In this document: piece by piece, positions 1,073 to 20,676 of the stretch
Layout: each line of letters opens with the position of its first letter
How positions within the stretch are numbered: the stretch's first letter is position 1
Source of the DNA: a virus
Length of the DNA stretch: 28,052 bases
Virus record (IMG/VR): IMGVR_UViG_3300042453_005804
Coordinates: 30,001-58,052 of that record
Direction: 5' to 3' (one strand)
The notes under the pieces: generated by a model
The model's database searches: none
Told to the model about the DNA's origin: nothing
The model's input: only the letters and a program-made list of their open reading frames with translations
Translations under genes and position numbers: made by a program

Positions 1073-1407
1073 GTTTTTAACTTTGAGTAGAAATCTTGAG
1101 CATCTTTTCTTACATTAGGATTGTGATTTCGCCATGAACCTTTGTGGCCTATGTTCAAATGACACTCGTATTGATCCATACATAAGGTGATCAAGTTTTC
1201 GCTGTCTAGTTCGAAAGAAGGATCAATGTGTACTGGAATTATATGATGAACTTGTATTTTCTTTTTCTTTCCGCATGCCACACACGATTCATTAAGTTCT
1301 AAATGCGCTGCTCTTACCAGCGGCCATAATTTGTCTCTTCTAAGCTCCTTAGATTTTTCTCTAATGGTAGCAAAAAAAACATTAAAGGCATGCTTAAAAG
1401 TATTCAT
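1069..1407 (-). CDS. HNH endonuclease (free-standing)
   Basis: CVACG...VHHIIP...ENLITLC...CH...H is an HNH / Cys-box zinc-finger nuclease pattern. The start overlaps the upstream stop as ATGA. Confidence 0.8.
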   Translation of the reverse strand: MNTFKHAFNVFFATIREKSKELRRDKLWPLVRAAHLELNESCVACGKKKKIQVHHIIPVHIDPSFELDSENLITLCMDQYECHLNIGHKGSWRNHNPNVRKDAQDFYSKLKT

Positions 1408-1691
1408 GACCTGTATATTGGGCTATGAGGAATCACGTGATAATCTTTTGTATACATGTCTGGAAAGACACCAACGTCGTCTGAAATTGGAGGAACTGGT
1501 CCGTAACAATCTTCGAGATCTACTTCTGGTTCTGAAAGATGCGATATAATTTTTTCATCTTCAGGATCAGCGATAGAACCCAACTGTTCTCTTGAAGTTA
1601 AATCTTGAGAAAGTACATTGCTGATGTGAGGTCCTTCTAACACCTCTCTGATTGTTTCTTTGATATACTCTCTCAAGATTTTGTTTTTCAT
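1404..1691 (-). CDS. Hypothetical acidic protein, LRxxI(R/K)E N-terminal motif family
   Basis: The N-terminus is MKNKILREYIKETIREVLEG. The ORF sits in the same-strand gene train. Confidence 0.6.
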   Translation of the reverse strand: MKNKILREYIKETIREVLEGPHISNVLSQDLTSREQLGSIADPEDEKIISHLSEPEVDLEDCYGPVPPISDDVGVFPDMYTKDYHVIPHSPIYRS

Positions 1692-1701
1692 ATGCTTATA
1701 A

Positions 1702-1860
1702 CTAGGATTCTTTAGTAGACTTTTCTTTTTCTGCTACATTCTTAGCGAAACATGACGCTATAGAGTTGCTAATTTCTGCTGTAATGCTTACCATTGTTAC
1801 TAGTGAAAATAAAAACATAGTAAAAAACAAGTAAGGGTGTTCAAGCGCCCATTGAATCAT
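1702..1860 (-). CDS. Small membrane protein, 52 aa (shortened from track ORF 1702..1926)
   Basis: The internal ATG at 1860 follows GGGAGA with a 5-nt spacer and lies just after the infA stop. The product MIQWALEHPYLFFTMFLFSLVTMVSITAEI... has one hydrophobic helix. The longer track version would overlap infA by about 50 nt. Confidence 0.5.
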   Translation of the reverse strand: MIQWALEHPYLFFTMFLFSLVTMVSITAEISNSIASCFAKNVAEKEKSTKES

Positions 1861-1873
1861 TTCATTCTCCCGT

Positions 1874-2125
1874 TTATCTGCGCCACGAGATTCGACCTCT
1901 TGTAGTATCGTAGATTGAAACTTCAACTGTTACATCATCCCCTGGTAATACGACGATGTGATTTTGCCTTAACTTTCCTGACAGCGTTGCCAATACAGTC
2001 TGGCCTGTTGTTGTTTTTACCTTGAATAAGGTGCCAGGTAATGCCTCTTCGACAGTTCCTGTGAGCTCTAAACTATCTTCTCTTTCAATCTGTGATGTCT
2101 CTTTCGAGTTCTTCTTCTTCTTCAT
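1874..2125 (-). CDS. infA: Translation initiation factor IF-1 homologue
   Basis: LTGTVEEALPGTLFKVKTTTGQTVLATLSGKLRQNHIVVLPGDDVTVEVSIYDTTRGRISWR aligns along its length with E. coli IF1 ([62 protein letters not shown]). It has an extra Lys-rich N-terminal extension, MKKKKNSKETSQIERED. Confidence 0.9.
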   Translation of the reverse strand: MKKKKNSKETSQIEREDSLELTGTVEEALPGTLFKVKTTTGQTVLATLSGKLRQNHIVVLPGDDVTVEVSIYDTTRGRISWRR

Positions 2126-2303
2126 AATTTTCTATTTGTTTTTTTTCTTCTTCTGTCGAACTTCCTAACCCTTGGAGAGGTACGTAATTTATTCCTTTTT
2201 GAGGACTACTTAAATCTCCTCCAAAGTATCCTGCAGACCAACGTAAATTTCTTTCAACTTCTTCTCTTATAATCTTTCTTAATTCAGATAACTTGATTTT
2301 CAT
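2085..2303 (-). CDS. Hypothetical acidic protein, LRxxIRE motif family
   Basis: The N-terminus is MKIKLSELRKIIREEVERNL and the C-terminus is acidic. It overlaps infA by 41 nt. Confidence 0.55.
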   Translation of the reverse strand: MKIKLSELRKIIREEVERNLRWSAGYFGGDLSSPQKGINYVPLQGLGSSTEEEKKQIENYEEEEELERDITD

Positions 2304-2673
2304 GTATCATATCTATTTCCAAATTCGATATGTCTACGTAGTTAGATGCGCTAATAACGTCTCTTGAATCAACTTCTATAAAAGTCCTGGAAGTGGTAAT
2401 TTCAATTTTAGACCCAGACTTTATAGGGACCGCTTGTAGAATCGTTAAATTCATTCCAAAAAAATCTTCAGGAATTAATTCCAAAATGTTAGAATCTTCA
2501 TTTAAGATGACTATTCGTTTAGATGAATGATGATAACCACAAGCGATTATCACGTTCTTTCTCATTTTTTCTTTTATTACTAGAATTTCTTCTGTGCACA
2601 GAGACGACATGTAACTAGGTAAGATAATCTCTTCTACTTTTCCAGATGAAGAAATCTTTGCATGATTTTTCAA
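2284..2673 (-). CDS. Hypothetical protein
   Basis: Long ORF in the operon orientation. Its TTG start forms a TTGA overlap with the upstream stop. Internal ATGs are alternative starts. Confidence 0.45.
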   Translation of the reverse strand: MKNHAKISSSGKVEEIILPSYMSSLCTEEILVIKEKMRKNVIIACGYHHSSKRIVILNEDSNILELIPEDFFGMNLTILQAVPIKSGSKIEITTSRTFIEVDSRDVISASNYVDISNLEIDMIHENQVI

Positions 2674-2888
2674 ACCACCCTCAATAGCTCATCAAAAAAG
2701 TATGGTCCTTCAACTGAAGTTCCGTCTACAAGAACATAGTAAACTTGAGAATAGCTATTGGACATGTGCTCGACGTGTTTGCTTTTGCATGAATTAGAAT
2801 GGTGTACGTCTATAACAATACCATTTTTTTCAGGACTTTTCATTTTAAATTTGACAAGGTCTCCCTTGGAAAATCTAGGTAAAATCAA
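2670..2888 (-). CDS. Hypothetical small protein
   Basis: Its TTG start overlaps the groEL stop as TTGA. The KGDLVKFK...GIVIDV pattern hints at an SH3/KOW-like beta fold, but this is unverified. Confidence 0.45.
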   Translation of the reverse strand: MILPRFSKGDLVKFKMKSPEKNGIVIDVHHSNSCKSKHVEHMSNSYSQVYYVLVDGTSVEGPYFFDELLRVV

Positions 2889-4507
2889 GCAGTTTCTCCA
2901 TTGACCAAGACAGCGTCTAAAGTTAAAAACAGTCTAGCAACTGAAGAAGAATTCTTAAGAGCCATTTTAGTAACCTTGACTGGGTCGATAATACCAGCCG
3001 CCACAAGATCGACAAACTCGCCTGAAGAAGCATCATATCCGAAGTTGTTATTGACATTCTTACTCATACATTCTTCAATGACGTCTGGCGATTTGCCACT
3101 ATTATGAGCAATTCTCCTCAATGGTTCTACGCAAGATTTAAAAACCATTTCAATTCCGGCCAACACGTCCCTTTCATAAGAGACATTTTTTGTAGCTTTT
3201 CTGGCTGCTATCGATGCCGTGTATAAAGCTGTTCCTCCGCCCGGAATTATTCCTTCTTCAGTCGCTGCGCGTGTCGCATGAAGAGCATCTTCTATTCTAT
3301 ATTTGCGTTCGATCATTTCCATCTCGGTGGCCCCGCCGACTCGTACGACAGCAACCCCAGAAGCGAGCCGAGCAATTCTGGTTCTTAGGTTATTCATTTC
3401 AAGAGAGCTTATTGTTACATCATTAAGCCTCACTTTTAAATCAGAAACATGCTCTTGGACCTGCTCTCTCGCAGATGAAGGACCAACGATCGTAGTGGTT
3501 TTTGCATCGACAACAAACTTCTTTGCAGTTCCCAGATCTGATAGTTTTACTTTGTCCAAAGACAAACCAGTAGAGCTAGAAACCAGCTTAGCTCCTGTCA
3601 GTTTTGAAATATCAATAAGATATTCATCTTTTGAAGTTCCAAATCCAGGAGACTTAATGGCAACAATCGGTAATTGAGATTTCACTCTATTAAGAACTAA
3701 CCCTTGTAATGCTTCTCCGTCAACATCATCAGCAATGATGAGAAGAGGTTTTCTAGAATTTACCACAGATTCAAGAATAGGAACAAGATCCTTTAATACA
3801 GATATTTTTTTATCTGTGATTAGAACATATGCATCATTATAAGAAGCATGCATCTTTTCGTTGTTCGTAACGAAGTAAGGACTTAAATAACCCCTATCAA
3901 ACTGCATTCCGTCAACCACGTCAAGAGTGGTCGCCATTCCCTTAGCATCTTCTACAGTAATGATTCCATCTCTTCCAACTTTTTCCATTGCAGCTGAAAT
4001 TAGCTCACCTATTTTCTTATCACCATTGGCTGAAATGGTACCAATTTGCGCAATTTCTTCAGTCGTTTCGACTGGATGTGCCTGAGAAACAACGGCATCA
4101 GTCACTAATTTGATCGCGATGTCCATTCCTTCTACTAATTTTTTCGCGTTGTAACCCGCCTCTAACAAATTTAATCCATTTTTTACTAAAGCATGTGTAA
4201 GGACGGTCGAGGTAGTCGTTCCATCGCCAGCTGTGTCATTGGTTTGAGACGCTGCTTCTCTCAGTAGCCTTACTCCCATCATCTCTACTGGATCATCTAG
4301 TTTTACGGATTTGCTGACCGTTACGCCGTCTTTTGTAATGATCGGAGAATCATTTCCATTTTGGATTAAGACTGTTTTTCCATTCGGACCTAAAGTGCAG
4401 CTTACTGCTTCAGCTGCTATGCTAAGACCTGCATATAGCTTTTTTCTAGCATCGCTAGAAAATAACACGCAATTATTAGATTTAGGAGGATGGGGTTCAA
4501 AAGACAT
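2885..4507 (-). CDS. groEL: Chaperonin GroEL (Cpn60) homologue
   Basis: The 540-aa product has typical GroEL blocks: TLGPNGKTVLI, ITKDGVTVSKSV, AGDGTTTSTVL, VGGATEMEMIERKYRIEDALHATRAATEEGIIPGGG and IIDPVKVT. There is no C-terminal GGM repeat tail and no GroES-like gene next to it. Confidence 0.95.
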   Translation of the reverse strand: MSFEPHPPKSNNCVLFSSDARKKLYAGLSIAAEAVSCTLGPNGKTVLIQNGNDSPIITKDGVTVSKSVKLDDPVEMMGVRLLREAASQTNDTAGDGTTTSTVLTHALVKNGLNLLEAGYNAKKLVEGMDIAIKLVTDAVVSQAHPVETTEEIAQIGTISANGDKKIGELISAAMEKVGRDGIITVEDAKGMATTLDVVDGMQFDRGYLSPYFVTNNEKMHASYNDAYVLITDKKISVLKDLVPILESVVNSRKPLLIIADDVDGEALQGLVLNRVKSQLPIVAIKSPGFGTSKDEYLIDISKLTGAKLVSSSTGLSLDKVKLSDLGTAKKFVVDAKTTTIVGPSSAREQVQEHVSDLKVRLNDVTISSLEMNNLRTRIARLASGVAVVRVGGATEMEMIERKYRIEDALHATRAATEEGIIPGGGTALYTASIAARKATKNVSYERDVLAGIEMVFKSCVEPLRRIAHNSGKSPDVIEECMSKNVNNNFGYDASSGEFVDLVAAGIIDPVKVTKMALKNSSSVARLFLTLDAVLVNGETA

Positions 4508-4546
4508 ACCAGTATAGTAAACTCACCTAAGTATTTGTACAGGATT

Positions 4547-4879
4547 TTATCCCTTGGTGACATTTACGTACACAGGTTGTCCTTTTCTCCAAGCAACAGC
4601 TATGTGACCCTTGACATAATCGACCAACATTACATTTAGGATCAATTCTTGTTGTTTATCTTTAATTTTCTCAATGTACTTTATCAGTTTATATTCAGTG
4701 TAATCAATGAGCTTTTTCTTAGAGTTTGCAAATTCTGTTTTCTGCGAAACGTGCATGGTAAACTCAGTGCATTCGCTGATCGGAATATTTGAGTTCCCTC
4801 TAGTCTTCATGTTATATCGTTGCATCGGCTCTTTCGAACCTAACTTCATCAAACTATAATTATTGATTGTTCGGCTCAT
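4547..4879 (-). CDS. Hypothetical protein
   Basis: The ORF lies directly upstream of groEL on the same strand. I see no resemblance to GroES. Confidence 0.45.
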   Translation of the reverse strand: MSRTINNYSLMKLGSKEPMQRYNMKTRGNSNIPISECTEFTMHVSQKTEFANSKKKLIDYTEYKLIKYIEKIKDKQQELILNVMLVDYVKGHIAVAWRKGQPVYVNVTKG

Positions 4880-4923
4880 CTTATGAACGTTTATAACACT
4901 TTTATGAGAGTGTATTTACCGTA

Positions 4924-4945
4924 GTTGTGAAATTTTATTCACAAC
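4924..4945 (-). promoter_or_regulatory. 8-bp stem hairpin in an intergenic region
   Basis: GTTGTGAA-ATTTTA-TTCACAAC lies between the 5015 gene stop and the 4879 start. Neither side has a clear T-tract, so it is not called a terminator. Confidence 0.3.
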
Positions 4946-5014
4946 CTAAGTTAAAAAATACTTAATGTGAATAACTTGGCTAGATTAAACGTGTAAGAGA
5001 TTAATGAAGTAAGA

Positions 5015-5386
5015 TCAAGAGTCGTATTTTCTAGACTTCTTGATTGCTTTTTTCTTTGACAGCCCGCCTGCCATCATTCTAGATATCAAAATGTCAGCAA
5101 AATCTTTGTCACCATCATCATCTTTGTCTAAATCTTCTTGCGATCCCTCTGCATGCAGTTCTTCTTTCACAACATCTCTAATAAAAGCTCTTAACTCCAA
5201 AAGACTATCTTCGTTATTCATCTTTGTACCTTCAGCCTCTATGGCAGCTATTTGACCCCTGGCTTTCTTTTTAGATGTATGACAAGCCCTGTGCTTTTTA
5301 CCTTTTTTATCAGTATAAGAAAGCACGTAACCGCCAGAATCTCCGTCACTCTGCTTACATTTTTGTTTACGTATCTTGTATGGCAT
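5015..5386 (-). CDS. Hypothetical basic/acidic protein with an internal LRxFIRD motif
   Basis: The N-half is basic (KIRKQKCKQSDGDSGGY...KKKARGQIAAIEAEG). It is followed by LLELRAFIRDVVKEEL and an acidic stretch. Confidence 0.55.
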   Translation of the reverse strand: MPYKIRKQKCKQSDGDSGGYVLSYTDKKGKKHRACHTSKKKARGQIAAIEAEGTKMNNEDSLLELRAFIRDVVKEELHAEGSQEDLDKDDDGDKDFADILISRMMAGGLSKKKAIKKSRKYDS

Positions 5387-5463
5387 TTGTTCTCTATCTT
5401 ATAAAATTATCTAAAAAACCTTTGTTTTTTCTATAACTATTATTATACGGCAGGGGGTTCATT

Positions 5464-5784
5464 ATGAACTTACGTTTCCTGAATGCGGTATGTTTTTTTT
5501 GCGTGACCTTATCTGGGTGTGTCGGCAGCGATTCTTCTTTTGAAGAAAGTGAAGAAATGGCCGACGAAGAATCCACCGAGATCTCTCAGCCTCCGAAAAA
5601 TCATGATCAAAAACCAGAACCTGTAACGAAAGATGATCACGACGACGAAAGCTTTGGTGGACCATGTCCAGTTGACACGTATTTAATTCTTGAAAAAGAT
5701 GGTGTGAAGTATATGGTAGAAATTCAGGTTTTTTGTGATCCAATACAGAACATCATAAATCTAGGTTGCCCTGAACCTTATTAA
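5464..5784 (+). CDS. Putative lipoprotein
   Basis: GGGGG lies 7 nt upstream of the ATG. The hydrophobic signal peptide ends in the lipobox L-S-G-C (FFCVTLSGC), and the mature part is acidic. Confidence 0.6.
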   Translation: MNLRFLNAVCFFCVTLSGCVGSDSSFEESEEMADEESTEISQPPKNHDQKPEPVTKDDHDDESFGGPCPVDTYLILEKDGVKYMVEIQVFCDPIQNIINLGCPEPY

Positions 5785-5930
5785 TCTGAATCTTCTTCAT
5801 CACTTTGAACGATACCATGCCCTTGGCACCTGTCTTCTTGTGGCACACCAGCAAGCACATATTCAACGTGTTTTCCGCAACCTCCATATGTCAGTTTGTT
5901 GCAAATATCGCAACGTCTTCTATAGCACAT
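5781..5930 (-). CDS. Small Cys-rich protein, 49 aa (below the ORF-track cutoff)
   Basis: Hand translation gives MCYRRRCDICNKLTYGGCGKHVEYVLAGVPQEDRCQGHGIVQSDEEDSD. A purine-rich GGAAGAAAAGG lies upstream. A paralogue sits at 6654..6758. Confidence 0.45.
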   Translation of the reverse strand: MCYRRRCDICNKLTYGGCGKHVEYVLAGVPQEDRCQGHGIVQSDEEDSD

Positions 5931-5993
5931 ATTACCTTTTCTTCCATTCCATCATTAGCCTGTCATTCGATGATACCTTTTAAATTTCTGGGT

Positions 5994-6335
5994 TTACTGA
6001 GCATTTCTTACTGCGTCAGCCAACGTCTCGCTGCCATTGTATTTTAGCGAATCGTCTTGCCACAGGACAACAGGATCATCATAACCTTTTGTGACCATCA
6101 TTGGAACATTTGTTCCAAATCCAAACATACTTCCAGAACCTTGGACTGCAAATGAAGCTGCGTCTAATTCAGGTTGTTTGTATTTTGCCTGAAGTATTTT
6201 GGCGAACCTTGGAAACTTCTTTTGTATTTCTTCAAAGCTGGTCTTCTTGAGACCTTTCGCGGACATCTCATTTAAATTGGCTGCTTCTAGAAACTCTCTA
6301 ATGAGTTTTCTCAAACGCTTCTCACTCTGTTGCAT
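5994..6335 (-). CDS. Hypothetical protein, LRxxIRE motif family
   Basis: The N-terminus is MQQSEKRLRKLIREFLEAANL. The start overlaps the upstream stop by 1 nt (TAATG). Confidence 0.6.
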   Translation of the reverse strand: MQQSEKRLRKLIREFLEAANLNEMSAKGLKKTSFEEIQKKFPRFAKILQAKYKQPELDAASFAVQGSGSMFGFGTNVPMMVTKGYDDPVVLWQDDSLKYNGSETLADAVRNAQ

Positions 6336-6562
6336 TACTTAGTTTCCTTTTTACTTTTCTTAGATTTCAGACCCATGTCTTCTGCCCACTTGTTTATTTT
6401 ATCTTTTATGTCATTGGGAACGTAAACGCTGTCTGCTTTATAAGCAGGATCATCTAGTAGATCTTCATGATAGCTCTCTTCCGGATGAGATCCCGCATGA
6501 GAAGAGTATTCTTTCACGAATTCTTTTATTAAAATTCTTAATGCTTTTTCGTCAGAATTCAC
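6335..6562 (-). CDS. Hypothetical acidic protein, LRxxIKE motif family (start moved to GTG at 6562)
   Basis: The track start at 6607 lies inside the palindromic terminator at 6588-6615. The in-frame GTG at 6562 gives (M)NSDEKALRILIKEFVKEY, the usual position of the family motif. Confidence 0.5.
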   Translation of the reverse strand: MNSDEKALRILIKEFVKEYSSHAGSHPEESYHEDLLDDPAYKADSVYVPNDIKDKINKWAEDMGLKSKKSKKETK

Positions 6563-6587
6563 GTCAATACTTATCTCAAGCAAATAA

Positions 6588-6615
6588 AAAAAGCTGTGGA
6601 GCTCCACAGCTTTTT
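6588..6615 (-). terminator. Perfect 28-nt palindrome, bidirectional intrinsic terminator
   Basis: AAAAAGCTGTGGAGCTCCACAGCTTTTT has A/T runs on both sides. Confidence 0.6.
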
Positions 6616-6653
6616 ATTCGTTTTTAAGTTTAAATCAAGGCTCGCCGCCAAAG

Positions 6654-6758
6654 CTAGGTACTTCCTCCAAAGATTTGTTCCGCATGTTTTCCACATCCAC
6701 TATAAGTGAGCTTATTTCGAATATCACATCTTCGTCTATAACATATTGACGTCCTCAC
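6654..6758 (-). CDS. Small Cys-rich protein paralogue, 34 aa, GTG start (possibly decaying)
   Basis: The product (M)RTSICYRRRCDIRNKLTYSGCGKHAEQIFGGST is paralogous to 5781..5930. The codon matching the paralogue's ATG is ATA here. An upstream GTG overlaps the previous stop as GTGA. One Cys is replaced by Arg. Confidence 0.3.
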   Translation of the reverse strand: MRTSICYRRRCDIRNKLTYSGCGKHAEQIFGGST

Positions 6759-7297
6759 TTCGTGACATGAGACTGGTTAAATTTATTTTTCAACCATGAA
6801 GTAAATGCTCTATCAGCATCGGGCAATTCATCTTCATCGTCATAATATCTAAGTCGACTTAGAAACTCTTTTTCGAATTCATTTTCTAATTTATCGTCCA
6901 CAATATCAGTGGTGTCAGGATCGATGGAAAGGTAGTCGAAGAATGGATTTTTCTTTTTCTCTGCGGGGTCTAATTCTTGTGCAGCTTTGTAAGCATCATA
7001 TGCCGCCGTGCCAGCTTCAATCGCCCCCATCTTCGCTGCCGCGGCAATTAACGCTGGCGCGCTCGCCGCGCCAGCGAGCGCACCAATTATCCCAACAACA
7101 GTTGCTTTTCCAACAGATTTTGCTGCTTCTTTAGCTTTCGCTATATTTTTATGCTTTTGTATAAACTGTAGAGCTTGTCTAAGATCTCCTGCAGTATATA
7201 CTATGCGTTCAGTAATTATATCTTCCTGCACCAACGATCTAGTGCCCAGAGATTCTTTGATGTATTCTCTAAGGAGTTTTTCATCTTTTCGATTCAT
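6755..7297 (-). CDS. Hypothetical protein, LRxYIKE motif family, with an Ala/Gly-rich hydrophobic core
   Basis: The N-terminus is MNRKDEKLLREYIKESL. The central segment VVGIIGALAGAASAPALIAAAAKMGAIEAGTAA looks like a glycine-zipper or membrane segment. Confidence 0.6.
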   Translation of the reverse strand: MNRKDEKLLREYIKESLGTRSLVQEDIITERIVYTAGDLRQALQFIQKHKNIAKAKEAAKSVGKATVVGIIGALAGAASAPALIAAAAKMGAIEAGTAAYDAYKAAQELDPAEKKKNPFFDYLSIDPDTTDIVDDKLENEFEKEFLSRLRYYDDEDELPDADRAFTSWLKNKFNQSHVTK

Positions 7298-7318
7298 AGA
7301 TTTTCGACAAATAAATAC

Positions 7319-7350
7319 AACCGCAGGAGGGAGTATTCCCTCCTGCGGTT
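7319..7350 (-). terminator. Intrinsic terminator after the Gly-rich lipoprotein gene
   Basis: AACCGCAGGAGGGA-GTAT-TCCCTCCTGCGGTT forms a 14-bp stem. In minus sense it is followed by GTATTTATTTG. Confidence 0.6.
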
Positions 7351-7373
7351 AAAGCTTTATGCTTTTTTATTTT

Positions 7374-7598
7374 TCAAACGCCGCCGCCGGCACCACCAAC
7401 ACCCGGTGCCCCACCTGTTGCACCACCACCAACTCCCGTGCCACCAGTTCCAGGTGCTCCACCCGTCGAAGTAACTGCACCACCTTGACCAGCACCACCG
7501 GCTCCACCGGCGCCGGTACCAGTCGAACCTGAATCATCGCCGCAAGCAGCGAGAGCGACGGCGGCGACGATAAACAATGCGATAGTATTCTTGATCAT
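7374..7598 (-). CDS. Gly-rich putative lipoprotein
   Basis: The signal peptide and lipobox are MIKNTIALFIVAAVALAAC. About 55 residues of G/A/T/S-rich low complexity follow. The segment is locally much more GC-rich than its surroundings. Confidence 0.55.
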   Translation of the reverse strand: MIKNTIALFIVAAVALAACGDDSGSTGTGAGGAGGAGQGGAVTSTGGAPGTGGTGVGGGATGGAPGVGGAGGGV

Positions 7599-7682
7599 TT
7601 TTCTTTAACCTTGTCAACCGAAAGTACGGTTGATACAAAGAATATATCACATTCAAGCATTGTTTACAATGTATTCAGACAA

Positions 7683-8081
7683 TCATTTTCCTCTCAAAAT
7701 TTGAGAAACTGGTTTTCTAGACCATAGGCGGCAGCTCCAGTAGGCTGCTTTTGTCCTATCTGAAGCCCTTTTTGTACCACATCCGTGACGGGCCCTAAAA
7801 GACTTACGAGCTTTCGGATTGTCACGTCGAATTTCCATGTTAGGATCCCCGAAGTTGACTTTCTTCACATTTCCCGTCCTCTTATCTTTGACGTAGACCT
7901 TGTATTTTTTTACGTCACCTTTCATGGGTTTGCCGAGTTGAACATCACGACCTCGATACTCAGCTTCTGTCAACATGTCGATTTGTTCAACGTTGAGCTC
8001 GTACTCATCGAATACCCCTGCTTCCATCAACATGAAAGCTTCACTTATGATCTCTCTTAAAATGCTTATGGTGACCTGCAT
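7683..8081 (-). CDS. Hypothetical protein, LRxIISE motif at the N-terminus and a basic C-terminal domain
   Basis: The N-terminus is MQVTISILREIISEAF. The C-terminal block is KKYKVYVKDKRTGNVKKVNFGDPNMEIRRDNPKARKSFRARHGC...YWSCRLW. From memory this block resembles a widespread viral hypothetical family, which I have not verified. Confidence 0.6.
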   Translation of the reverse strand: MQVTISILREIISEAFMLMEAGVFDEYELNVEQIDMLTEAEYRGRDVQLGKPMKGDVKKYKVYVKDKRTGNVKKVNFGDPNMEIRRDNPKARKSFRARHGCGTKRASDRTKAAYWSCRLWSRKPVSQILRGK

Positions 8082-8133
8082 GTAAATAAACTTTCTACAA
8101 ATTTACGATAAGTATATACGAGCTTCTTATAAT

Positions 8134-8439
8134 CTATTCTTTGGTTTCCTCTTTAGGGGCGGCTTCTGCTGCTGCGTCTGCAGGCGTAGCTCCCTTAGTT
8201 TTAAAACCTATATACTCTGCAGCGTCGGCGGGACGGCTTGGGTCCCCATCAGATCCTTGCGCTCTTCCTGGAGATCTGTACCAATATCCTTGGATGTCCA
8301 CGCCTCGTTCAATCTCATAGGGATAAAACCCAGATTTTTCAGTGGGGTCGGCCGTGACTCCAGGACCAGATGGGCCCTCTTGCAGATGCTTCCTGATGAT
8401 TTTACGTAACTCTTTGAGGCTAATTTTGATCGTTCTCAT
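8134..8439 (-). CDS. Hypothetical protein, LRxIIRK motif family (start moved to ATG at 8439)
   Basis: The internal ATG gives MRTIKISLKELRKIIRKHLQEG, the family's normal N-terminal position. GAGGAA lies upstream. Confidence 0.55.
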   Translation of the reverse strand: MRTIKISLKELRKIIRKHLQEGPSGPGVTADPTEKSGFYPYEIERGVDIQGYWYRSPGRAQGSDGDPSRPADAAEYIGFKTKGATPADAAAEAAPKEETKE

Positions 8440-8605
8440 CTTCGAGATCTTCCTCAATATAACCTTGAGAACCAAGCATCTCTAACTCTTCTACATCCAA
8501 AGGATCGTTCACGGATCCCATCCAACGTCCTGGCATCCACGTTTCCTCTTCGATTATTTCTCTAATGACTCTTCGGAGTTCAGACAATCTTAGCTTCATA
8601 CGCAA
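8420..8605 (-). CDS. Hypothetical acidic protein, LRxVIRE motif family
   Basis: The N-terminus is MRMKLRLSELRRVIREIIEEE and the C-terminus is acidic. Confidence 0.55.
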   Translation of the reverse strand: MRMKLRLSELRRVIREIIEEETWMPGRWMGSVNDPLDVEELEMLGSQGYIEEDLEDENDQN

Positions 8606-8660
8606 AGACTATATATGGATTCAGCATATCATATTTACAAATATTTGAATACATATTGTC

Positions 8661-9077
8661 ATGATGAATGACGAAAGCGTTGGCAGAGACTGGAATGAAG
8701 GAGAGGAAGATCACGAAGGGTACATGGCTGTCGCACAACTTCACAGAATAGTGGAGATGTCGAACATGATGTTGGATGTCATAGGTGAGAATGACGAAAT
8801 ACCAGGTTGGATACAATACAAGATCACGAGAGCGTACAATGATTTAAACGACGCTTTTGCTTATATCGAGTATGAATCTCACGAAGAATCTCCAGAAGTA
8901 CCAGGCGAAGTTCTTGAAGGTCGTAAGAAGAAGAAAGGATTATGGGCTAATATTCACGCGCGTCGAAAAGCTGGAAAGCGACCAAAGCGACCAGGCGAAA
9001 AAGGTTACCCAAAGACTCTTGACATCGGCGAATCGATCGTTAGAGAATTTATAAAAGAAATTATGAAAGAAAAGTGA
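8661..9077 (+). CDS. Hypothetical protein with the family motif at the C-terminus
   Basis: The N-half is acidic. A basic block KKKKGLWANIHARRKAGKRPKRPGEKGYPK follows, and the protein ends in ESIVREFIKEIMKEK. Confidence 0.6.
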   Translation: MMNDESVGRDWNEGEEDHEGYMAVAQLHRIVEMSNMMLDVIGENDEIPGWIQYKITRAYNDLNDAFAYIEYESHEESPEVPGEVLEGRKKKKGLWANIHARRKAGKRPKRPGEKGYPKTLDIGESIVREFIKEIMKEK

Positions 9078-9137
9078 TGTTGGTAGGCGTCTTGTTCCTT
9101 CTCATAGGAATCGGAATATTTGTGGCGACTCTGGGGC

Positions 9138-9422
9138 TTAAGACGTAGATTTGTTAGAAACAGTTTCTAATTGAGACACGTGAAATTCTCGAACTTCAAA
9201 GGGATTATTCAAGACTCTAACGACGGCGATGTCTTGGACTTCAGCATGAAATCCAGCGACGATGTAAAGAGACCCGTATAGAGGATCTTCAACCCATTCG
9301 TAAATCCAGCGAACTATATCACCAATGATAGGTTTATTCTGAGGAAGATGACACGGCATGCTGATTTTCCGTAAATCTTGAAGAATTTCGTCAGGCTCGC
9401 TGGTTTCAGCTGCGCTCATCAT
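9138..9422 (-). CDS. Hypothetical protein
   Basis: ORF in the same-strand train with no recognisable motif. Confidence 0.45.
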   Translation of the reverse strand: MMSAAETSEPDEILQDLRKISMPCHLPQNKPIIGDIVRWIYEWVEDPLYGSLYIVAGFHAEVQDIAVVRVLNNPFEVREFHVSQLETVSNKSTS

Positions 9423-9439
9423 TTTCTTATCAATAATTA

Positions 9440-9670
9440 TCAGCTTTCGTCATGATCGTCAGAATTTTGATCCAACGTTTTTTCGATGATTCGTTTAAAA
9501 GCAAGCCAAATAATCGCAACAAATCCTTCAGCGATTATTTGCGTAGCTACCCACCCGTAACAAATGATGGTCATACCTATCATCGCTGAATCTGGATTTG
9601 AGAACGATTTGAAACCAACGAATGCCAAAGCTGTCAAAAAAGCAAGTGATACAGCTGCCTTTAAAGTCAT
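9440..9670 (-). CDS. Small membrane protein (2-3 hydrophobic helices)
   Basis: Hydrophobic segments are AVSLAFLTALAFVGF, MIGMTIICYGWVATQII and GFVAIIWLAF, with an acidic tail. Confidence 0.55.
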   Translation of the reverse strand: MTLKAAVSLAFLTALAFVGFKSFSNPDSAMIGMTIICYGWVATQIIAEGFVAIIWLAFKRIIEKTLDQNSDDHDES

Positions 9671-10068
9671 TACATTCTTCCCTTGTGATTAGTTGCCGAA
9701 GATTGAGTGATCGTCTTAAATCTTACGCCTGGATCAGTGGACAGATGAGATCCTAATTGACAGCTCTTGCCCTTATGGTATCCTGCGTTGTTCCTGTAAA
9801 ATGATGAGTACTTTTCGCGATCAGCAGTAGAGTCAAAAGCAAGAACGGTGACAGAAGCCTGTTTGCCGTCGCCATTGGCCAATCCCAGGTATTTCACCGT
9901 AGATTCTACCGAACATTCCGGGCACGTGTTGACTCGGCCACCGGCACGAATCTTTGCAGGCGAATTTGTATCGAACATGCAACTACACTCCACGCATTCT
10001 CTTAGCATGGATCCATCATAACATGATGGATGATGACTTTTCACCGTGGTGGCTGACATTGTGGACAC
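9670..10068 (-). CDS. Hypothetical protein with a zinc-ribbon-like Cys pattern
   Basis: It has CVECSC...CPEC. The start overlaps the Nei 3' end by 28 nt. Confidence 0.45.
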   Translation of the reverse strand: MSTMSATTVKSHHPSCYDGSMLRECVECSCMFDTNSPAKIRAGGRVNTCPECSVESTVKYLGLANGDGKQASVTVLAFDSTADREKYSSFYRNNAGYHKGKSCQLGSHLSTDPGVRFKTITQSSATNHKGRM

Positions 10069-10868
10069 CAGTGGACCATCCTTCCTCCGTTGTCACGTTC
10101 GCTGCGGATCTCATGACCCTTGGGACATCGTGATCTAGCGTACACCTTGAAGAAAAATTGAGATGTTCCCGTTAATCCATTCACGTCCCTGTAGGTCTTG
10201 ATAGAGGCTCCTTGAGACAAATAGGACTGACGAGAAATCTTCGCGGATTCCTCACATAACCTTATGTACTCTTGAGAAGATATGTCAGTCACGTTACACC
10301 ATGGATCAACACCGCAGGCGAACAGAATCTCTGCACGTAGATAGTTGCCAATCCCAGCCACCGTAGATTGATCCATGAGGGCCTCGCAGATTGTCCTATT
10401 GGGTTTACCCAGCGTTCTTTTTGTGAATATTTCTGGTGTCAATTCGTCATCTCCAAGAACATCAGGACCGAGACTTTCCAATTTCTTTCTGTGCACTCCT
10501 TCATCTTTGACGAATTTTAGTGTACCGAACCTACGAACGTCGTGAAACCCGATGCTCTTTGAATCTTCACCATACGAGAGTATCACGGCGGTGTTTCTAT
10601 CTGGCGGTGTGGTTGTCCATTGACCTGACATACCATATGTGCACCACATTTTCCAGGGACCCATCGTCCACCACATGAACTTGCCTTTGACGTCGACGGA
10701 TTCGACAACGTAAGAATTCTTCTCGTTATCTCGCAGAAATTCGTGCAATCCCTCGATGGGTTTCTTGGTGTATCGTCCGCCGACGAGGTCGAACTTTTTG
10801 ATGCGTTTGTTGAGCAAAATCTCTCTTAAAAGATCTCTTGAATGACGAAGCTCGGGACCTTCAGGAAT
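10041..10868 (-). CDS. nei: Endonuclease VIII (Nei)/Fpg-family DNA glycosylase-AP lyase, apparent ATT start
   Basis: Extending the track ORF upstream in frame gives I-PEGPELRHSRDLLREIL, matching the E. coli Nei N-terminus MPEGPEIRR. The H2TH motif is GIGNYLRAEILFACGVDP. The C-terminal zinc finger is CPKGH...HWCPQC. No ATG, GTG or TTG precedes PEGPEL in frame. Confidence 0.85.
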   Translation of the reverse strand: MPEGPELRHSRDLLREILLNKRIKKFDLVGGRYTKKPIEGLHEFLRDNEKNSYVVESVDVKGKFMWWTMGPWKMWCTYGMSGQWTTTPPDRNTAVILSYGEDSKSIGFHDVRRFGTLKFVKDEGVHRKKLESLGPDVLGDDELTPEIFTKRTLGKPNRTICEALMDQSTVAGIGNYLRAEILFACGVDPWCNVTDISSQEYIRLCEESAKISRQSYLSQGASIKTYRDVNGLTGTSQFFFKVYARSRCPKGHEIRSERDNGGRMVHWCPQCQPPR

Positions 10869-10876
10869 TTGAGTAA

Positions 10877-10883
10877 CCCTCTT
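10877..10883 (-). promoter_or_regulatory. Shine-Dalgarno AAGAGGG, 8 nt upstream of the ATT codon of nei
   Basis: The minus-sense sequence reads AAGAGGG-TTACTCAA-ATT-CCT-GAA-GGT. Confidence 0.5.
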
Positions 10884-10945
10884 ATAAGCGTTTTTTGTGC
10901 TTACTTTCGAAAGATTAACATGGCAGCCTGTATATTTACACTTGG

Positions 10946-11617
10946 ATGTCAGAAACGCAGCTTAGAAGATTCATCAGACAAGTTTTAATGGAAGTTAGTT
11001 CTCCCACGGAAGAGCTAGCAGGATTCTATGAAGACGCCAGCGATTGGGGTATGAAGGCTATCACCTTATATTATCCATCTCAGGTTCAAAAGAATTTGGA
11101 CGATGTCTCACAAGGGGTCGTCGGATACATTGCCGCACAAAAGCCTAAACAACGTTGCGCAGGCGCATGGGAAATTAAAATGGCCGGGGGACGAGGGTAT
11201 GGTGGGATTTTATACCCAGCGATGTTTGCTGCTGTTGGAGGTCCACTCATACCTGACAGAAATTCGCTTACTGACGATGCCGTGAGAGGATGGAGCAAAC
11301 AGGGATCCCGCAAAAAAGCGGCTCTTGATAATTTTTACGCAGATGATGACAAGAAAGCCACTCCTAAAGATGATTCCGATGACTGTAGAGTTAGAAATTG
11401 GAATCTTGATAAAATTACAGGACGGTGGGTAGGAGATCCCGTGCTTGATAATGCATATTTCCCGAAGGGAAATGAGAATTCTATCTTTCAAAAACTTCTA
11501 TCCAATCATGATAGTTTTATTGAACGTCTTAGTGACAAAGACGTCGATGTCGATTCGTTGTTAGCACGAATATCTAGAGCTGGTGTGGAAAGATTCGAAA
11601 AAGAACGTTTGGGTTAA
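10946..11617 (+). CDS. Hypothetical protein, LRRFIRQ motif family (larger member)
   Basis: The N-terminus is MSETQLRRFIRQVLMEV, followed by a 223-aa body with no recognised domain. Confidence 0.6.
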   Translation: MSETQLRRFIRQVLMEVSSPTEELAGFYEDASDWGMKAITLYYPSQVQKNLDDVSQGVVGYIAAQKPKQRCAGAWEIKMAGGRGYGGILYPAMFAAVGGPLIPDRNSLTDDAVRGWSKQGSRKKAALDNFYADDDKKATPKDDSDDCRVRNWNLDKITGRWVGDPVLDNAYFPKGNENSIFQKLLSNHDSFIERLSDKDVDVDSLLARISRAGVERFEKERLG

Positions 11618-14130: not shown

Positions 14131-14163
14131 TACACTGGAGCAGGGAGAGGTATACATAACAAC

Positions 14164-16978: not shown

Positions 16979-17039
16979 AAAGTCCTCTTCTAAATTAGGT
17001 ATATGTATCCGCTTTACAAAGTATCAAAAAGTCATGAAA

Positions 17040-17075
17040 ATTCAGGACCAAGGCTAAAAGGCCGAGGTCCTGAAT
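17040..17075 (-). terminator. Repeated hairpin terminator, copy 2
   Basis: ATTCAGGACC-AA-GGCT-AAAA-GGCC-GA-GGTCCTGAAT. The inner stem differs from copies 1 and 3 but still pairs. Confidence 0.6.
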
Positions 17076-17099
17076 AGTTTTTGTCGTTATGTTTGATGT

Positions 17100-18071: not shown

Positions 18072-18115
18072 AACTACTCCTCAGAGACATCTGTAGACAT
18101 CTCTTAAGAATAAAT
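18036..18115 (-). repeat. Conserved 5' module (first 12 codons, SD and 5'UTR), copy A
   Basis: 18036-18089 is identical to 19968-20021 (54 nt), and similarity continues for about 26 nt more. It includes GAGGAG-TAGTT-ATG. Confidence 0.8.
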
Positions 18116-18149
18116 ATAAATTCAATTATGAATTAGTCATTAAATAAAA

Positions 18150-18183
18150 TTCAGGACCAAGGTCGAAAGGCCGAGGTCCTGAA
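18150..18183 (-). terminator. Repeated hairpin terminator, copy 3
   Basis: The core TTCAGGACCAAGGTCGAAAGGCCGAGGTCCTGAA is identical to copy 1. In minus sense it is followed by TTTTATTT. Confidence 0.65.
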
Positions 18184-20073: not shown

Positions 20074-20676
20074 TCACTCAAAGCTATAAGACACGTCGAC
20101 CTTCACCTTGAGGCTAGGCACTCGTAAATGGTTTGCCAGACCGATCGATTGGGCTTCTTCTGCGTCCAAATACCAGTCGGCGTGTGACCTATCATGAATT
20201 TGCTTCAAAAAGAATTCAGGTTCCTTGCCACAATTTGCCGCCATTTCTCTATAAACAAGCTGGTTTAGTCTATCACCTTCTTTTGCGTCGGCCTTGATCT
20301 CTTCGATCTTTCCCCTGGCACCACTAGAAACATCATGGATCATGATGGTGGCGTGCTTATCCATGAAACGATAACCAGAAGTACCGTAGCTGAACAACAA
20401 CGCACCACATGACATGGCCTTACCTTCGACGATTGTTGCCACCGGAATGTTTGAAGCCTTAATGTTTGCGATCATGGACATGAGAGAGTAGACTTGACCC
20501 CCATAAGAGTCTATGACCACTGGGATCATCGTTTGACCCGTGGACTGCGCGGCCGACATTTGATTGGAGAACTTTTCGGCGGCTTCCTCATCAAATTTAT
20601 TCACCCTGATGATCACTGGGTTGTAACGTAGCTCGACTTTTTCTAAACGTTTTGAGATGTCTTTAATGATATTCAT
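20074..20676 (-). CDS. ClpP/S14-family serine protease (cellular-type ClpP or phage prohead-type; not resolved)
   Basis: IPVVIDSYGGQVYS...GKAMSCGALLF (Ser), ATIMIHDV (His) and the C-terminal ADWYLDAEEAQSIGLANHL align with the ClpP Ser-His-Asp blocks. Confidence 0.8.
   Translation of the reverse strand: MNIIKDISKRLEKVELRYNPVIIRVNKFDEEAAEKFSNQMSAAQSTGQTMIPVVIDSYGGQVYSLMSMIANIKASNIPVATIVEGKAMSCGALLFSYGTSGYRFMDKHATIMIHDVSSGARGKIEEIKADAKEGDRLNQLVYREMAANCGKEPEFFLKQIHDRSHADWYLDAEEAQSIGLANHLRVPSLKVKVDVSYSFE

What the first reader, a model, noticed from the sequence alone, without database searches (positions are those of the whole stretch)
1404..11617. Family of at least 11 small proteins sharing an L-R-x-(I/L/F/Y)-I-(R/K)-E helix motif, mostly at the N-terminus
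Read directly from the translations, the motif occurs in these ORFs:
- 1404: KILREYIKETIRE
- 2085: LSELRKIIREEVE
- 5015: LLELRAFIRDVVKEE (internal)
- 5994: EKRLRKLIREFLE
- 6335: EKALRILIKEFVKE
- 6755: EKLLREYIKESL
- 7683: ISILREIISEAF
- 8134: LKELRKIIRKHLQE
- 8420: LSELRRVIREIIEE
- 8661: ESIVREFIKEIMKEK (C-terminal)
- 10946: ETQLRRFIRQVLME
The rest of each protein is unrelated, often acidic or low-complexity. The motif usually begins 5-10 residues after the start codon, and all members cluster in the left 11 kb. A short shared leader on otherwise unrelated proteins looks like a targeting, docking or processing signal rather than ordinary paralogy. One concrete hypothesis is a capsid-targeting or propeptide signal. 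Phage T4 internal proteins share an N-terminal targeting sequence that the prohead protease cleaves after Glu in (L/I)-x-E. Here I-(R/K)-E fits that shape, and a protease gene lies in the window. Other options are a shared helix for binding a common partner (chaperonin, nucleic acid) or a translational-efficiency element at the RNA level.
Basis: partly seen in the sequence, partly recalled or inferred. Interest (0 to 1): 0.7.

Follow-up and report, generated by a model that had tools for sequence, protein, structure and literature searches.

The report
Shared leader peptide on phage proteins
About a dozen unrelated small proteins in this large freshwater T4-like phage start with the same short helix ending in ...I-(R/K)-E, which most likely acts as an address tag that loads them into the forming virus head and is then cut off, as phage T4 does with its internal proteins.

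Summary
Eleven ORFs between 1404 and 11617 carry L-R-x-phi-I-(R/K)-E, against 0.1 expected in residue shuffles. Codons differ, so conservation is at the protein level, and the protein bodies are unrelated. With corrected start codons the Leu lies at residue 6-11 in nine of the eleven.

The family extends beyond the window. On the matching 282-kb contig it continues past the left edge with the sharper consensus MKIRLSELRRIIRE. An exact degenerate DNA pattern for that consensus hit 42 IMG/VR stretches.

The lineage is a T4-like myovirus. It encodes a gp21-type (Pfam S77) prohead protease, a T4-type portal, a scaffold and a gp23-type capsid protein. Leader-bearing genes flank these head genes in four separate lineages.

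Several points fit cleavage by that protease:
- The capsid protein's predicted maturation site (VLKE|S) aligns with T4's LTE|A.
- Leaders without the Glu have phi-x-E four residues later.
- In other phages the leader also sits at domain junctions of fused proteins.

Best reading: a capsid-targeting propeptide like the T4 CTS, cut by the prohead protease. This is inferred, not shown. The ClpP-type protease in the window is not the relevant enzyme. I found no published description.

The parts
1644..1691 (-). Leader of ORF 1404-1691 (95 aa): MKNKILREYIKETIRE. A diverged form with two phi-x-E sites (IKE, IRE).
   Evidence: An orthologue in L001 keeps the leader as MQHKILREYIRNVINE. A family relative in L017 carries the canonical MKITLRELRRIIRE.
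2250..2303 (-). Leader of ORF 2085-2303 (72 aa): MKIKLSELRKIIREEVER. Canonical form.
   Evidence: Scores E=6e-11 against a leader HMM trained only on other IMG/VR contigs.
5162..5221 (-). Internal leader in ORF 5015-5386 (123 aa): MNNEDSLLELRAFIRDVVKE. It sits at the junction between a 55-aa N-terminal domain and a C-terminal module (KDDDGDKDFADILISRMMAGG).
   Evidence: The C-terminal module occurs elsewhere as a stand-alone gene with an N-terminal canonical leader (L024, L028, L030, L050). The fusion is kept in L001, with the junction reading MKLSLNELRNIIRQVLEE.
6282..6335 (-). Leader of ORF 5994-6335 (113 aa): MQQSEKRLRKLIREFLEA.
   Evidence: The only Pfam hit is a sub-threshold DEK_C match over the leader.
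6509..6562 (-). Leader of ORF 6335-6562 (75 aa from GTG 6562): (M)NSDEKALRILIKEFVKE.
   Evidence: Homologues P0009-P0011, P0018 and P0019 have different leaders on the same body. P0018 carries MKIKLSELRKIIREE.
7241..7297 (-). Leader of ORF 6755-7297 (180 aa): MNRKDEKLLREYIKESLG.
   Evidence: The L001 orthologue has MKKDEKLLREYIRESI. The gene is absent from L002.
8028..8081 (-). Leader of ORF 7683-8081 (132 aa): MQVTISILREIISEAFML. A weak member with Ser in place of Arg/Lys. The body matches phrog_7595 from residue 38.
   Evidence: The L001 orthologue reads MQVTLGILKQIIAEAIML.
8377..8439 (-). Leader of ORF 8134-8439 (101 aa from ATG 8439): MRTIKISLKELRKIIRKHLQE|GPSGPG. The Glu position holds Lys, and L-Q-E follows four residues later, just before a Gly/Pro linker.
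   Evidence: The family is widespread as MKIRISELRKLIRKVIAE|GPSGPG, next to the 8420 family. Compensation pattern.
8546..8599 (-). Leader of ORF 8420-8599 (59 aa from ATG 8599): MKLRLSELRRVIREIIEE. Canonical form.
   Evidence: HMM E=2e-10. Identical to database protein P0001, and P0002 differs by one residue and is recorded on a 282,134-bp contig.
9024..9074 (+). C-terminal leader-like tail of ORF 8661-9077 (138 aa): DIGESIVREFIKEIMKEK.
   Evidence: In the fused protein P0145 the homologous ...GYPKTLDI is followed by ETQELKELRAFIRH, which is the leader of an 8134-like module. The tail is therefore best read as a junction leader left behind by a fission event.
10946..10993 (+). Leader of ORF 10946-11617 (223 aa): MSETQLRRFIRQVLME. 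The Glu position holds Gln, and L-M-E follows four residues later.
   Evidence: The leader is identical in L001 and L002.
20074..20676 (-). ClpP-family protease gene. It is not part of the proposed mechanism.
   Evidence: PF00574 CLP_protease. The S77 prohead protease is P0082, encoded elsewhere.

Best explanation
The motif is the core of a 14-18 residue amphipathic, basic N-terminal helix. Its canonical form is M-K-(I/L)-x-L-x-(E/Q)-L-R-x-(I/V)-I-(R/K)-E-x-phi.

I propose that it works like the capsid-targeting sequence (CTS) of phage T4 internal proteins. It would dock otherwise unrelated cargo proteins onto the scaffolding core or inner shell of the assembling prohead. The phage's gp21-type (S77) prohead protease would then cut after the Glu of I-(R/K)-E, or after the next phi-x-E. 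That would leave the mature cargo inside the head, to be ejected with the DNA.

Where the leader sits between two domains, the same cut would split a fused precursor into its modules.

Shown here: the shared leader, its position, its wide distribution, the T4-type head genes of the lineage, and the genomic association with them. Inferred: docking, cleavage, packaging and ejection.
For: 1. Shared leader on unrelated bodies. There are 11 hits against 0.1 expected, the conservation is at the protein level, and the bodies are unrelated. Of 49 distinct leader-bearing proteins of at least 100 aa from the fetched loci, only four have any Pfam domain. In the NUDIX protein the domain starts at residue 21, directly after the leader.

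2. The lineage is T4-like.
- Bulk Pfam annotation of loci found through the leader gives Portal_T4, Gp23, Peptidase_S77 and tail sheath.
- S77 protease P0082 is recorded on a contig of 282,134 bp, the same length as the contig carrying the window's genes. It also occurs in the same Lake Mendota sample.

3. Leader genes lie in head modules of four lineages.
- L042: TerL, leader gene, portal, protease, two leader-like genes, scaffold.
- L013/L020/L031: leader genes on both sides of TerL and before the portal.
- L053 and L054: protease, two leader-like genes, scaffold, MCP, then more leader genes.
- AT-rich L066/L067: protease, a leader gene, then a two-leader gene.

4. Cleavage logic.
- T4 gp23's cleavage Glu65 (LTE|A) is an invariant column, aligned with VLKE|S, LIKE|A and IVSE|A in these phages.
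- In my reading of the listing, every recognisable leader without Glu at the usual position has phi-x-E four residues later (about 17 distinct sequences, for example RKVIAE|GPSGPG).
- The T4 record shows gp24 starting MAKINELLRE|S and gp22 starting MLKEQLIAE|A.
- T4 propeptides of 10-20 residues act as CTS (PMC5694885). T-even internal proteins share only a CTS (PMC3012670).

5. Junction use.
- Proteins with a second, internal leader at a domain boundary include P0144, P0146-P0150, P0152, P0153 and P0155.
- P0145 fuses three window families with a leader at one junction.
- Window ORF 5015 is such a fusion.

6. The capsid protein itself begins with a leader-like sequence, MKSFTIDQLAQGIKE.

7. 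The body domain DUF3008, which carries leaders in P0144, was detected by mass spectrometry as a virion protein in cyanophage S-SCSM1 (PMC9602691).

8. The region is hyperplastic among close relatives. Genes are gained and lost, and DNA identity is 67-79% against 96% next door. T-even internal-protein loci are described as similarly diverse (PMC3012670).
Against: - No direct evidence of cleavage or packaging exists for any member.
- The leader is basic, and conservation continues about four residues past the Glu (E-x-phi-x-E). This fits one continuous helix as well as it fits a cleavage site.
- The i/i+4 pattern of Glu residues could reflect helix surface chemistry rather than protease sites.
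- There are many leader genes, roughly 25 in the ~60 kb sampled. If all were packaged, the head cargo would be unusually rich.
- The window's members lie among small, early-looking genes (GroEL, IF-1, HNH), not in the head module.
- I found no shared late-promoter motif.
- The small proteins next to the protease have no PHROG match, so they cannot be equated with T4 gp67/gp68.
- The S-SCSM1 DUF3008 virion protein lacks the N-terminal leader.
- The leader has no sequence homology to the T4 internal-protein CTS itself.
Confidence: 0.5

Rival explanations
1. The leader is an uncleaved N-terminal amphipathic helix that docks many accessory proteins onto one common partner unrelated to the capsid. 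Candidates are a host hub protein, nucleic acid, or the phage chaperonin. Alternatively it drives self-association through a short coiled coil.
For: - The hydrophobic positions (1, 5, 8, 11/12, 15/16) form one face, and conservation runs through the Glu into the next turn.
- The motif can occur at a C-terminus (ORF 8661).
- A phage GroEL gene lies inside the cluster.
- Many members are tiny acidic proteins of the kind often seen among early host-takeover genes.
Against: This reading does not explain several observations:
- leader genes flank the S77 protease, scaffold and MCP in four lineages;
- the capsid protein N-terminus resembles the leader;
- phi-x-E is always retained;
- fused and split gene states interchange with the leader at the junction.
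Confidence: 0.25
2. The leader is an N-terminal degradation or unfolding tag read by a Clp-type machine, namely the phage ClpP homologue at 20074-20676 working with a host unfoldase. It would give a whole class of phage proteins a timed lifetime.
For: A ClpP-family gene is conserved in the lineage. N-terminal recognition signals for ClpX exist (general knowledge, not tested here).
Against: - Read against the published N-terminal ClpX motif classes as I remember them, the leader does not fit. The fourth residue is usually basic or polar where a hydrophobic residue is expected.
- The AT-rich L066/L067 lineage and the T4-like head-module association need no ClpP.
- A degron would not be expected at internal domain junctions or on the capsid protein.
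Confidence: 0.05
3. The leader is a membrane-surface or other localisation helix. It would bring proteins to the inner membrane, where T4-type proheads are initiated, or to some other site in the cell, without proteolysis.
For: Its amphipathic, basic character resembles known membrane-binding helices (inference from the sequences).
Against: The hydrophobic face is short and is interrupted by charged residues. The same unexplained points apply as for the first rival.
Confidence: 0.07
4. There is no shared function. The motif would be a compositional or translational side effect, for example a favoured Lys/Ile-rich start of coding regions, or a chance resemblance among helices.
For: Most window members fail a narrow HMM of the canonical leader. 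AAA/ATA-rich second and third codons are common in highly expressed genes (general knowledge).
Against: - 11 hits against 0.1 expected in shuffles.
- Codons are not conserved.
- Conservation extends over 14 or more residues.
- The motif is maintained in orthologues at 67-79% DNA identity.
- There were 42 exact hits to a 26-specified-base degenerate pattern, where I estimate fewer than one by chance.
Confidence: 0.03

Closest known systems
Capsid targeting sequence (CTS) of phage T4 internal proteins IPI, IPII, IPIII and Alt, and the polymorphic internal proteins of T-even phages
   Same: - A short N-terminal peptide is the only thing shared by otherwise unrelated, rapidly evolving small proteins.
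- It ends in (L/I)-x-E.
- The phage has a gp21-family protease, a gp22-like scaffold and gp23.
- The loci vary between close relatives (PMC3012670, PMC5694885).
   Different: - The sequence is different and longer: 14-18 residues and basic, against the 10-residue MKTYQEFIAE (quoted from memory).
- There are far more members per genome.
- It also occurs at internal domain junctions and once at a C-terminus.
- It is found in uncultured freshwater and marine T4-like phages with contigs up to about 300 kb, not in T-even phages.
- Function is untested.
[quoted passage not shown]
   Same: gp24's 10-residue start, read from the T4 record, resembles the leader core (K-I-x-E-L-(L/R)-R-E). The capsid protein of this lineage also starts with a leader-like sequence, and its Glu aligns with T4 gp23 Glu65.
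   Different: In T4 these are single structural proteins, not a family of accessory cargo proteins. The similarity is short and could be convergent.
Propeptides of giant-phage head proteins (SPN3US gp53/gp54, phiKZ inner-body and ejection proteins)
   Same: Diverged paralogues keep identical N-terminal residues containing protease motifs. Many head proteins are processed, some at several sites (PMC5694885).
   Different: Those propeptides are mostly longer than 100 residues, use (A/S/G)-x-E, belong to paralogous families, and are cut by an S80-type protease.
Encapsulin cargo-loading peptides
   Same: A short portable peptide, at either terminus, loads diverse cargo into an HK97-fold shell (general knowledge).
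   Different: The sequence is different, the peptide is usually C-terminal, it is not cleaved, and the shells are cellular nanocompartments rather than virions. This is an analogy only.

Membership tests
T4-type capsid targeting sequence / prohead-protease propeptide | A short (10-20 aa) terminal peptide shared by otherwise unrelated proteins | tested here: met
   The leader is 14-18 aa, the bodies are unrelated, and the fetched loci hold 49 distinct leader-bearing proteins of at least 100 aa.
T4-type capsid targeting sequence / prohead-protease propeptide | The peptide ends in the prohead-protease site (L/I)-x-E | tested here: met
   I-(R/K)-E is present in most members. Leaders lacking that Glu have phi-x-E four residues later (my reading of the listing). 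This is a sequence-level test only.
T4-type capsid targeting sequence / prohead-protease propeptide | The genome encodes a gp21-family (S77) protease together with a T4-type portal, scaffold and gp23 | tested here: met
   P0082 (PF03420) is recorded on a 282,134-bp contig, and the head module appears in L054, L055 and L057.
T4-type capsid targeting sequence / prohead-protease propeptide | The peptide is necessary and sufficient for incorporation into proheads | not testable with these tools
   Requires reporter fusions in an infected host.
T4-type capsid targeting sequence / prohead-protease propeptide | The peptide is absent from the mature protein in virions | not testable with these tools
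   Requires N-terminal mapping by virion mass spectrometry.
T4-type capsid targeting sequence / prohead-protease propeptide | Sequence homology to the T4 internal-protein CTS | tested here: inconclusive
   There is no detectable homology. Only the general shape is shared, plus a short resemblance to the T4 gp24 start MAKINELLRE. tblastn searches of leader peptides and two leader-family proteins against 50,697 GenBank phage records found nothing.
Pfam DEK_C (PF08766) | Score above the Pfam gathering threshold | tested here: not met
   16.5 bits against a cutoff of 24.8, for ORF 5994 only and over the leader residues 4-31.
ClpX N-terminal recognition signal | Fit to a published N-terminal motif class and dependence on ClpXP | not tested
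   Only compared by eye with the motif classes as I remember them, and the fit is poor. A ClpP homologue is present in the window.

The most novel reading that the evidence does not exclude
An abundant, uncultured clade of T4-like phages with contigs up to about 300 kb would use one portable 15-residue tag as a general cargo-loading and polyprotein-junction system. Dozens of fast-evolving ORFan proteins per genome, including enzymes such as NUDIX and PAP2, would be addressed to the prohead, trimmed by the prohead protease and injected with the DNA. This would be a far larger and more modular injected-effector arsenal than in any characterised phage. Gene fusion and fission would be selectively neutral because the tag marks the cut sites.
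Probability: 0.3. Interest if true: 0.8.

Novelty: new variant of a known kind. Interest (0 to 1): 0.65.

Why it matters
If the leader is a capsid-targeting propeptide, it gives a simple sequence rule for predicting which proteins a very abundant group of environmental phages carries in its heads and injects into hosts.

In T4, proteins of this kind are anti-restriction and host-takeover effectors. The rule would therefore point to dozens of candidate counter-defence proteins per genome among ORFs that are otherwise unannotatable.

The leader would also be a second, sequence-distinct packaging tag for engineering cargo into T4-like capsids.

It would also show that the T4 head-assembly logic (CTS plus gp21-type cleavage) is conserved, and greatly expanded, far outside the T-even phages.

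Tried and rejected
- Pfam and PHROGs on the window members gave no family covering the leader. There were only sub-threshold hits, plus phrog_7595 and several PHROGs for the bodies of ORFs 7683 and 8661.
- Megablast of 25 kb of the window, and tblastn of leader peptides and two small leader families, found no match in GenBank phages.
- A full-text literature search for six leader strings found no papers.
- The word-indexed protein search with a leader profile collected only 209 candidates, and the hits listed were mostly close relatives of three window families. It was not useful for judging breadth.
- A narrow leader HMM trained on IMG/VR hits is over-fitted to the pattern used to find them. 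It recognises only 2-3 window members.
- AlphaFold2 on the 223-aa protein without an alignment gave pLDDT 33, which is uninformative beyond predicting a helix at residues 3-17.
- PHROGs on the small proteins around the protease gave no hits, so no equivalence to T4 gp67/gp68 can be claimed.
- A search for a shared late-promoter-like box upstream of leader and head genes was negative. GTATATTTA-like sites are not enriched: 8 found against 6 expected.
- The DNA/RNA-level explanation is rejected because codons vary.
- Ordinary paralogy is rejected because the bodies are unrelated.

Full report
**Observation**

A loose regular expression for the motif finds 11 matches in 51 non-overlapping ORFs of the window. 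Residue shuffles of the same proteins give a mean of 0.097 and a maximum of 2. The strict form LR.[ILFYV]I[RK]E gives 6 against 0.0055.

In all six frames of the 28 kb there are only two further matches, both in stop-interrupted frames. The Leu, Arg and Ile codons differ from member to member and no upstream DNA is shared. The conservation is therefore in the protein, not in a DNA or RNA element. With the motif masked, no two members are similar at better than E=0.05.

Three start codons need correcting:
- GTG 6562 for ORF 6335;
- ATG 8439 for ORF 8134;
- ATG 8599 for ORF 8420.

The first and third agree with database proteins P0009 and P0001. After correction the Leu of LR lies at residue 6-11 in nine members. 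ORF 5015 has the motif at residue 65, preceded by a Met. ORF 8661 has it at the C-terminus.

**Where the window comes from**

Proteins of the window are encoded, residue for residue, on a 282,134-bp ENA contig and on a 43.8-kb Lake Mendota contig. Two IMG/VR contigs are relatives:
- L002 is about 87-91% identical in DNA.
- L001 is 96% identical to the right of coordinate 9500 but only 67-79% identical across the motif cluster.

The orthologues in L001 keep the motif with conservative changes, for example MQHKILREYIRNVINE and MKLSLNELRNIIRQVLEE. Several motif genes are present in one genome and absent from another. The cluster is therefore a fast-evolving, gene-flux region in which the leader is the conserved part.

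**The family is much larger than the window**

On the 282-kb contig, beyond the window's left edge, there are more members within 8 kb. They include:
- MKIRLSQLRKIIREE (232 aa);
- (M)KIELGELRKIIREE on a PAP2 phosphatase (237 aa);
- MKIRLAELRRVIQK (234 aa);
- MKIRLGELRRIIRE (227 aa);
- three MKLT..QLR.IIREE proteins.

An exact degenerate DNA pattern for M-K-x-x-L-x-(E/Q)-L-R-x-(I/V)-I-R-E has 26 specified bases. I estimate about 3x10^-13 per position at equal base frequencies, which is below one chance match even in 10^12 positions. It hit 42 stretches of IMG/VR from many metagenomes, on contigs of up to 298 kb. Every match opens an ORF of 25-354 aa, all but one of at least 53 aa, with diverse bodies.

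Several window families recur there with the canonical leader:
- the GWVPGRWYPG family (window ORF 8420);
- its neighbour, the EGPSGPGVTADPT family (ORF 8134);
- the AGSHPEESY family (ORF 6335);
- the DREQLGS family (ORF 1404);
- the C-terminal half of ORF 5015, as a stand-alone gene.

The diverged window leaders are thus the same element as the canonical one. An HMM trained only on unrelated contigs recognises 2085 and 8420 strongly, recognises 8134 weakly, and misses the rest. The window therefore holds a graded series.

Of 49 distinct leader-bearing proteins of at least 100 aa from the fetched loci, only four have any Pfam domain: NUDIX, PAP2, DUF3008 and a weak RelB-like match. None is a replication, transcription or tail protein. 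In the NUDIX protein the domain begins at residue 21, immediately after the leader.

**What kind of virus**

Bulk Pfam annotation of the large ORFs in the pattern-derived loci returned Portal_T4, Gp23, Peptidase_S77 (the T4 gp21 prohead protease family) and tail sheath. One of them, P0082, has a longest contig of 282,134 bp.

The neighbourhood of P0082 is a T4-type head module: TerL, a 102-aa gene, the portal, a 286-aa gene, the S77 protease, genes of 141, 78 and 164 aa, the scaffold, and the gp23-type capsid protein. One copy comes from the same Lake Mendota sample as the window-like contig.

The closest cultured phages by capsid protein are Microcystis phage Mel-JY01 (35%) and Flavobacterium phage immuto (43%). 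No GenBank phage matches the window DNA.

The protease gene inside the window is a ClpP homologue. It is not the prohead protease.

**Association with head assembly**

Leader or leader-like genes lie inside or beside the head module in four lineages.
- In the window's own lineage (L054), the two genes after the protease begin MKMTRNELKDLVKECL and MKLTSNLLKRIIMQEV. Genes after the capsid gene begin MKLTKSRLRELVVEE and MKLTERQLRKIILEE. The capsid protein itself begins MKSFTIDQLAQGIKE.
- L053 has the same layout, plus four canonical leader genes after the capsid gene.
- L042 has a leader gene between TerL and the portal, and two leader-like genes between the protease and the scaffold.
- L013, L020 and L031 have leader genes on both sides of TerL and before the portal.
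- The AT-rich L066/L067 lineage (about 33% G+C) was reached independently through the representative-protein search. It has the S77 protease, then a 109-aa gene starting MKKKINEAQLRAIIRE, then a 207-aa protein with two leaders.

**Cleavage logic**

[quoted passage not shown] The 10-20 residue propeptides serve as capsid-targeting sequences (PMC5694885). T-even internal proteins are a diverse set sharing only the CTS (PMC3012670).

Read from the T4 record, gp24 starts MAKINELLRE|S, gp22 starts MLKEQLIAE|A, and gp23 has FLTE|A at residue 65.

In an alignment of capsid protein N-termini, T4 Glu65 is an invariant column opposite QVLKE|S, QLIKE|A and QIVSE|A. A T4-like phi-x-E specificity is therefore likely to be retained in these phages.

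The leader ends in I-(R/K)-E. In my reading of the listing, every recognisable leader with another residue at that position has phi-x-E four residues later. Examples are RKVIAE|GPSGPG, RKHLQE|GPSGPG, RQVLME and QKVLLE. This is what a required cleavage site would give, but an i/i+4 pattern on one helix face is an alternative explanation.

**Junction leaders**

A profile of the ten window leaders was searched against 1.84 billion representative proteins. It gave only 14 hits at E<=0.001, as expected for so short a profile.

Nine of the 14 carry a second or internal leader at a domain boundary. One example is MKINESQLRKIIKES...NLNESQLRKIIKES.

P0145 joins an 8420-like module, the core of the window's ORF 8661 and an 8134-like module. 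The leader ELKELRAFIRH sits exactly after ...GYPKTLDI, where ORF 8661 has its C-terminal ...PKTLDIGESIVREFIKEIMKEK. This accounts for the odd C-terminal member as a junction leader left behind by a fission event. It matches ORF 5015, which is a fusion with an internal leader.

Free interchange between split genes with N-terminal leaders and fused genes with internal leaders is what one expects if the leader marks a processing site.

One body domain found behind leaders, DUF3008, belongs to a protein detected by mass spectrometry in virions of the T4-like cyanophage S-SCSM1. That protein has no N-terminal leader (PMC9602691).

**Interpretation**

The most likely mechanism is a CTS-like leader. 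An amphipathic helix docks cargo onto the prohead core, and the S77 protease cuts after the Glu. I give this about 0.5.

What is shown:
- the leader itself, its position and its breadth;
- the T4-type head machinery of the lineage;
- the repeated genomic association with that machinery.

Docking, cleavage, packaging and ejection are inferred.

The main rival (about 0.25) is an uncleaved docking or oligomerisation helix for some other common partner. It is favoured by conservation running past the Glu, by the basic charge, and by the early-gene look of the window cluster. A Clp degron, a membrane-localisation helix and a compositional artefact are less likely.

**Comparison and novelty**

Functionally this looks like the T4 CTS and internal-protein system, and several testable defining features are met. 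The sequence, however, is not homologous to the T4 internal-protein CTS, and there are far more members. The element also works, or at least occurs, at internal junctions. The host clade is an abundant uncultured group of T4-like phages with contigs up to about 300 kb.

I found no Pfam or PHROG family covering the leader and no paper containing the leader strings. I rate it a new variant of a known kind, with moderately high interest.

**Limits**

- I could read only about 60 kb of the 282-kb genome, and the regions were not sampled at random. The number of leader genes per genome is therefore unknown.
- No shared promoter was found.
- Structure prediction without an alignment failed.

Noticed in passing
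window 16208-19993 (- strand) and 24568-26314 (+ strand): There is a second family with a shared N-terminus. Four tandem Laminin_G_3 (LamG) proteins all begin MAINFNGVRIKP or MSIKLNGVRVRP. Two more begin MAI(V/K)(T/I)(K/T)GSGGS(I/F)(K/R)(F/L).GTGGG followed by a Gly run. Their number and length differ between relatives, and some carry collagen repeats. They are probably variable fibre or receptor-binding paralogues with a common anchoring N-terminus.
   Followed up: partly
window 11651-16098 (+ strand): A complete YeaH/DUF444 - SpoVR - PrkA (YeaG-like Ser kinase) operon is carried by the phage. It is 96% conserved between relatives, while the neighbouring leader cluster diverges. PrkA homologues occur in Thermus phages and in uncultured phage records of 635-642 kb.
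   Followed up: partly
window 2885-4507, 1874-2125, 10041-10817, 23778-24404, 22746-23324, 20074-20676: The phage carries an unusual set of cellular-type genes: GroEL/Cpn60, an IF-1-like protein, Fpg/Nei DNA glycosylase, a TilS-like ATP-binding protein (ATP_bind_3), a SpoU methylase and ClpP (Pfam marks).
   Followed up: no
window 8661-9077, residues ~90-126: The stretch KKKKGLWANIHARRKAGKRPKRPGEKGYP matches short segments at different positions of six unrelated PHROGs. It recurs inside the fused protein P0145. It looks like a mobile mini-module in its own right.
   Followed up: partly
window 22363-22767 (+ strand): By eye, the 134-aa protein (MSLNNPSSGFFSTPEFQTSGLPWTV...VTKSITFVNTD) resembles the 142-aa protein that directly follows the S77 protease in L042 (MSTQWPQAGVNDVG...VTKDVSVKNT). 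It may be a conserved virion protein. No alignment was computed.
   Followed up: no
window ~6565-6610 and ~7300-7345 (- strand): G+C-rich hairpins followed by T runs sit directly upstream of leader genes 6335 and 6755 (AAAAAGCTGTGGAGCTCCACAGCTTTTTTT; AACCGCAGGAGGGAATACTCCCTCCTGCGGTT). This suggests that several leader genes are separate transcription units.
   Followed up: no
window 26452-28026 (- strand), continuing beyond the right edge: This is the C-terminal part of a 1404-1414 aa protein. Its N-terminus contains LLLVDTSASM, which resembles a von Willebrand A metal-binding motif. By eye it looks like a PilY1-like or adhesin-like large protein.
   Followed up: no
L042 6495-11126: The portal gene of this relative is 1543 aa, against 656-662 aa in L054 and L055. 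It contains HNH- or intein-like insertions, and Pfam Intein_splicing was among the bulk hits.
   Followed up: no
window 21408-21929 (- strand): The ORF has an internal start reading MMKITPSQKLFLHNVLFHYL. It shares the MKIT.SQ prefix of canonical leaders but not the LR..IRE core. It may be a decayed member or a coincidence.
   Followed up: no
L070 5995-6204 (Synechococcus phage S-SCSM1 gene 93): The 69-aa DUF3008 virion protein ends ...KKKRTFKEFLEYIE. This C-terminal amphipathic tail loosely resembles the leader and the C-terminal tail of window ORF 8661.
   Followed up: no
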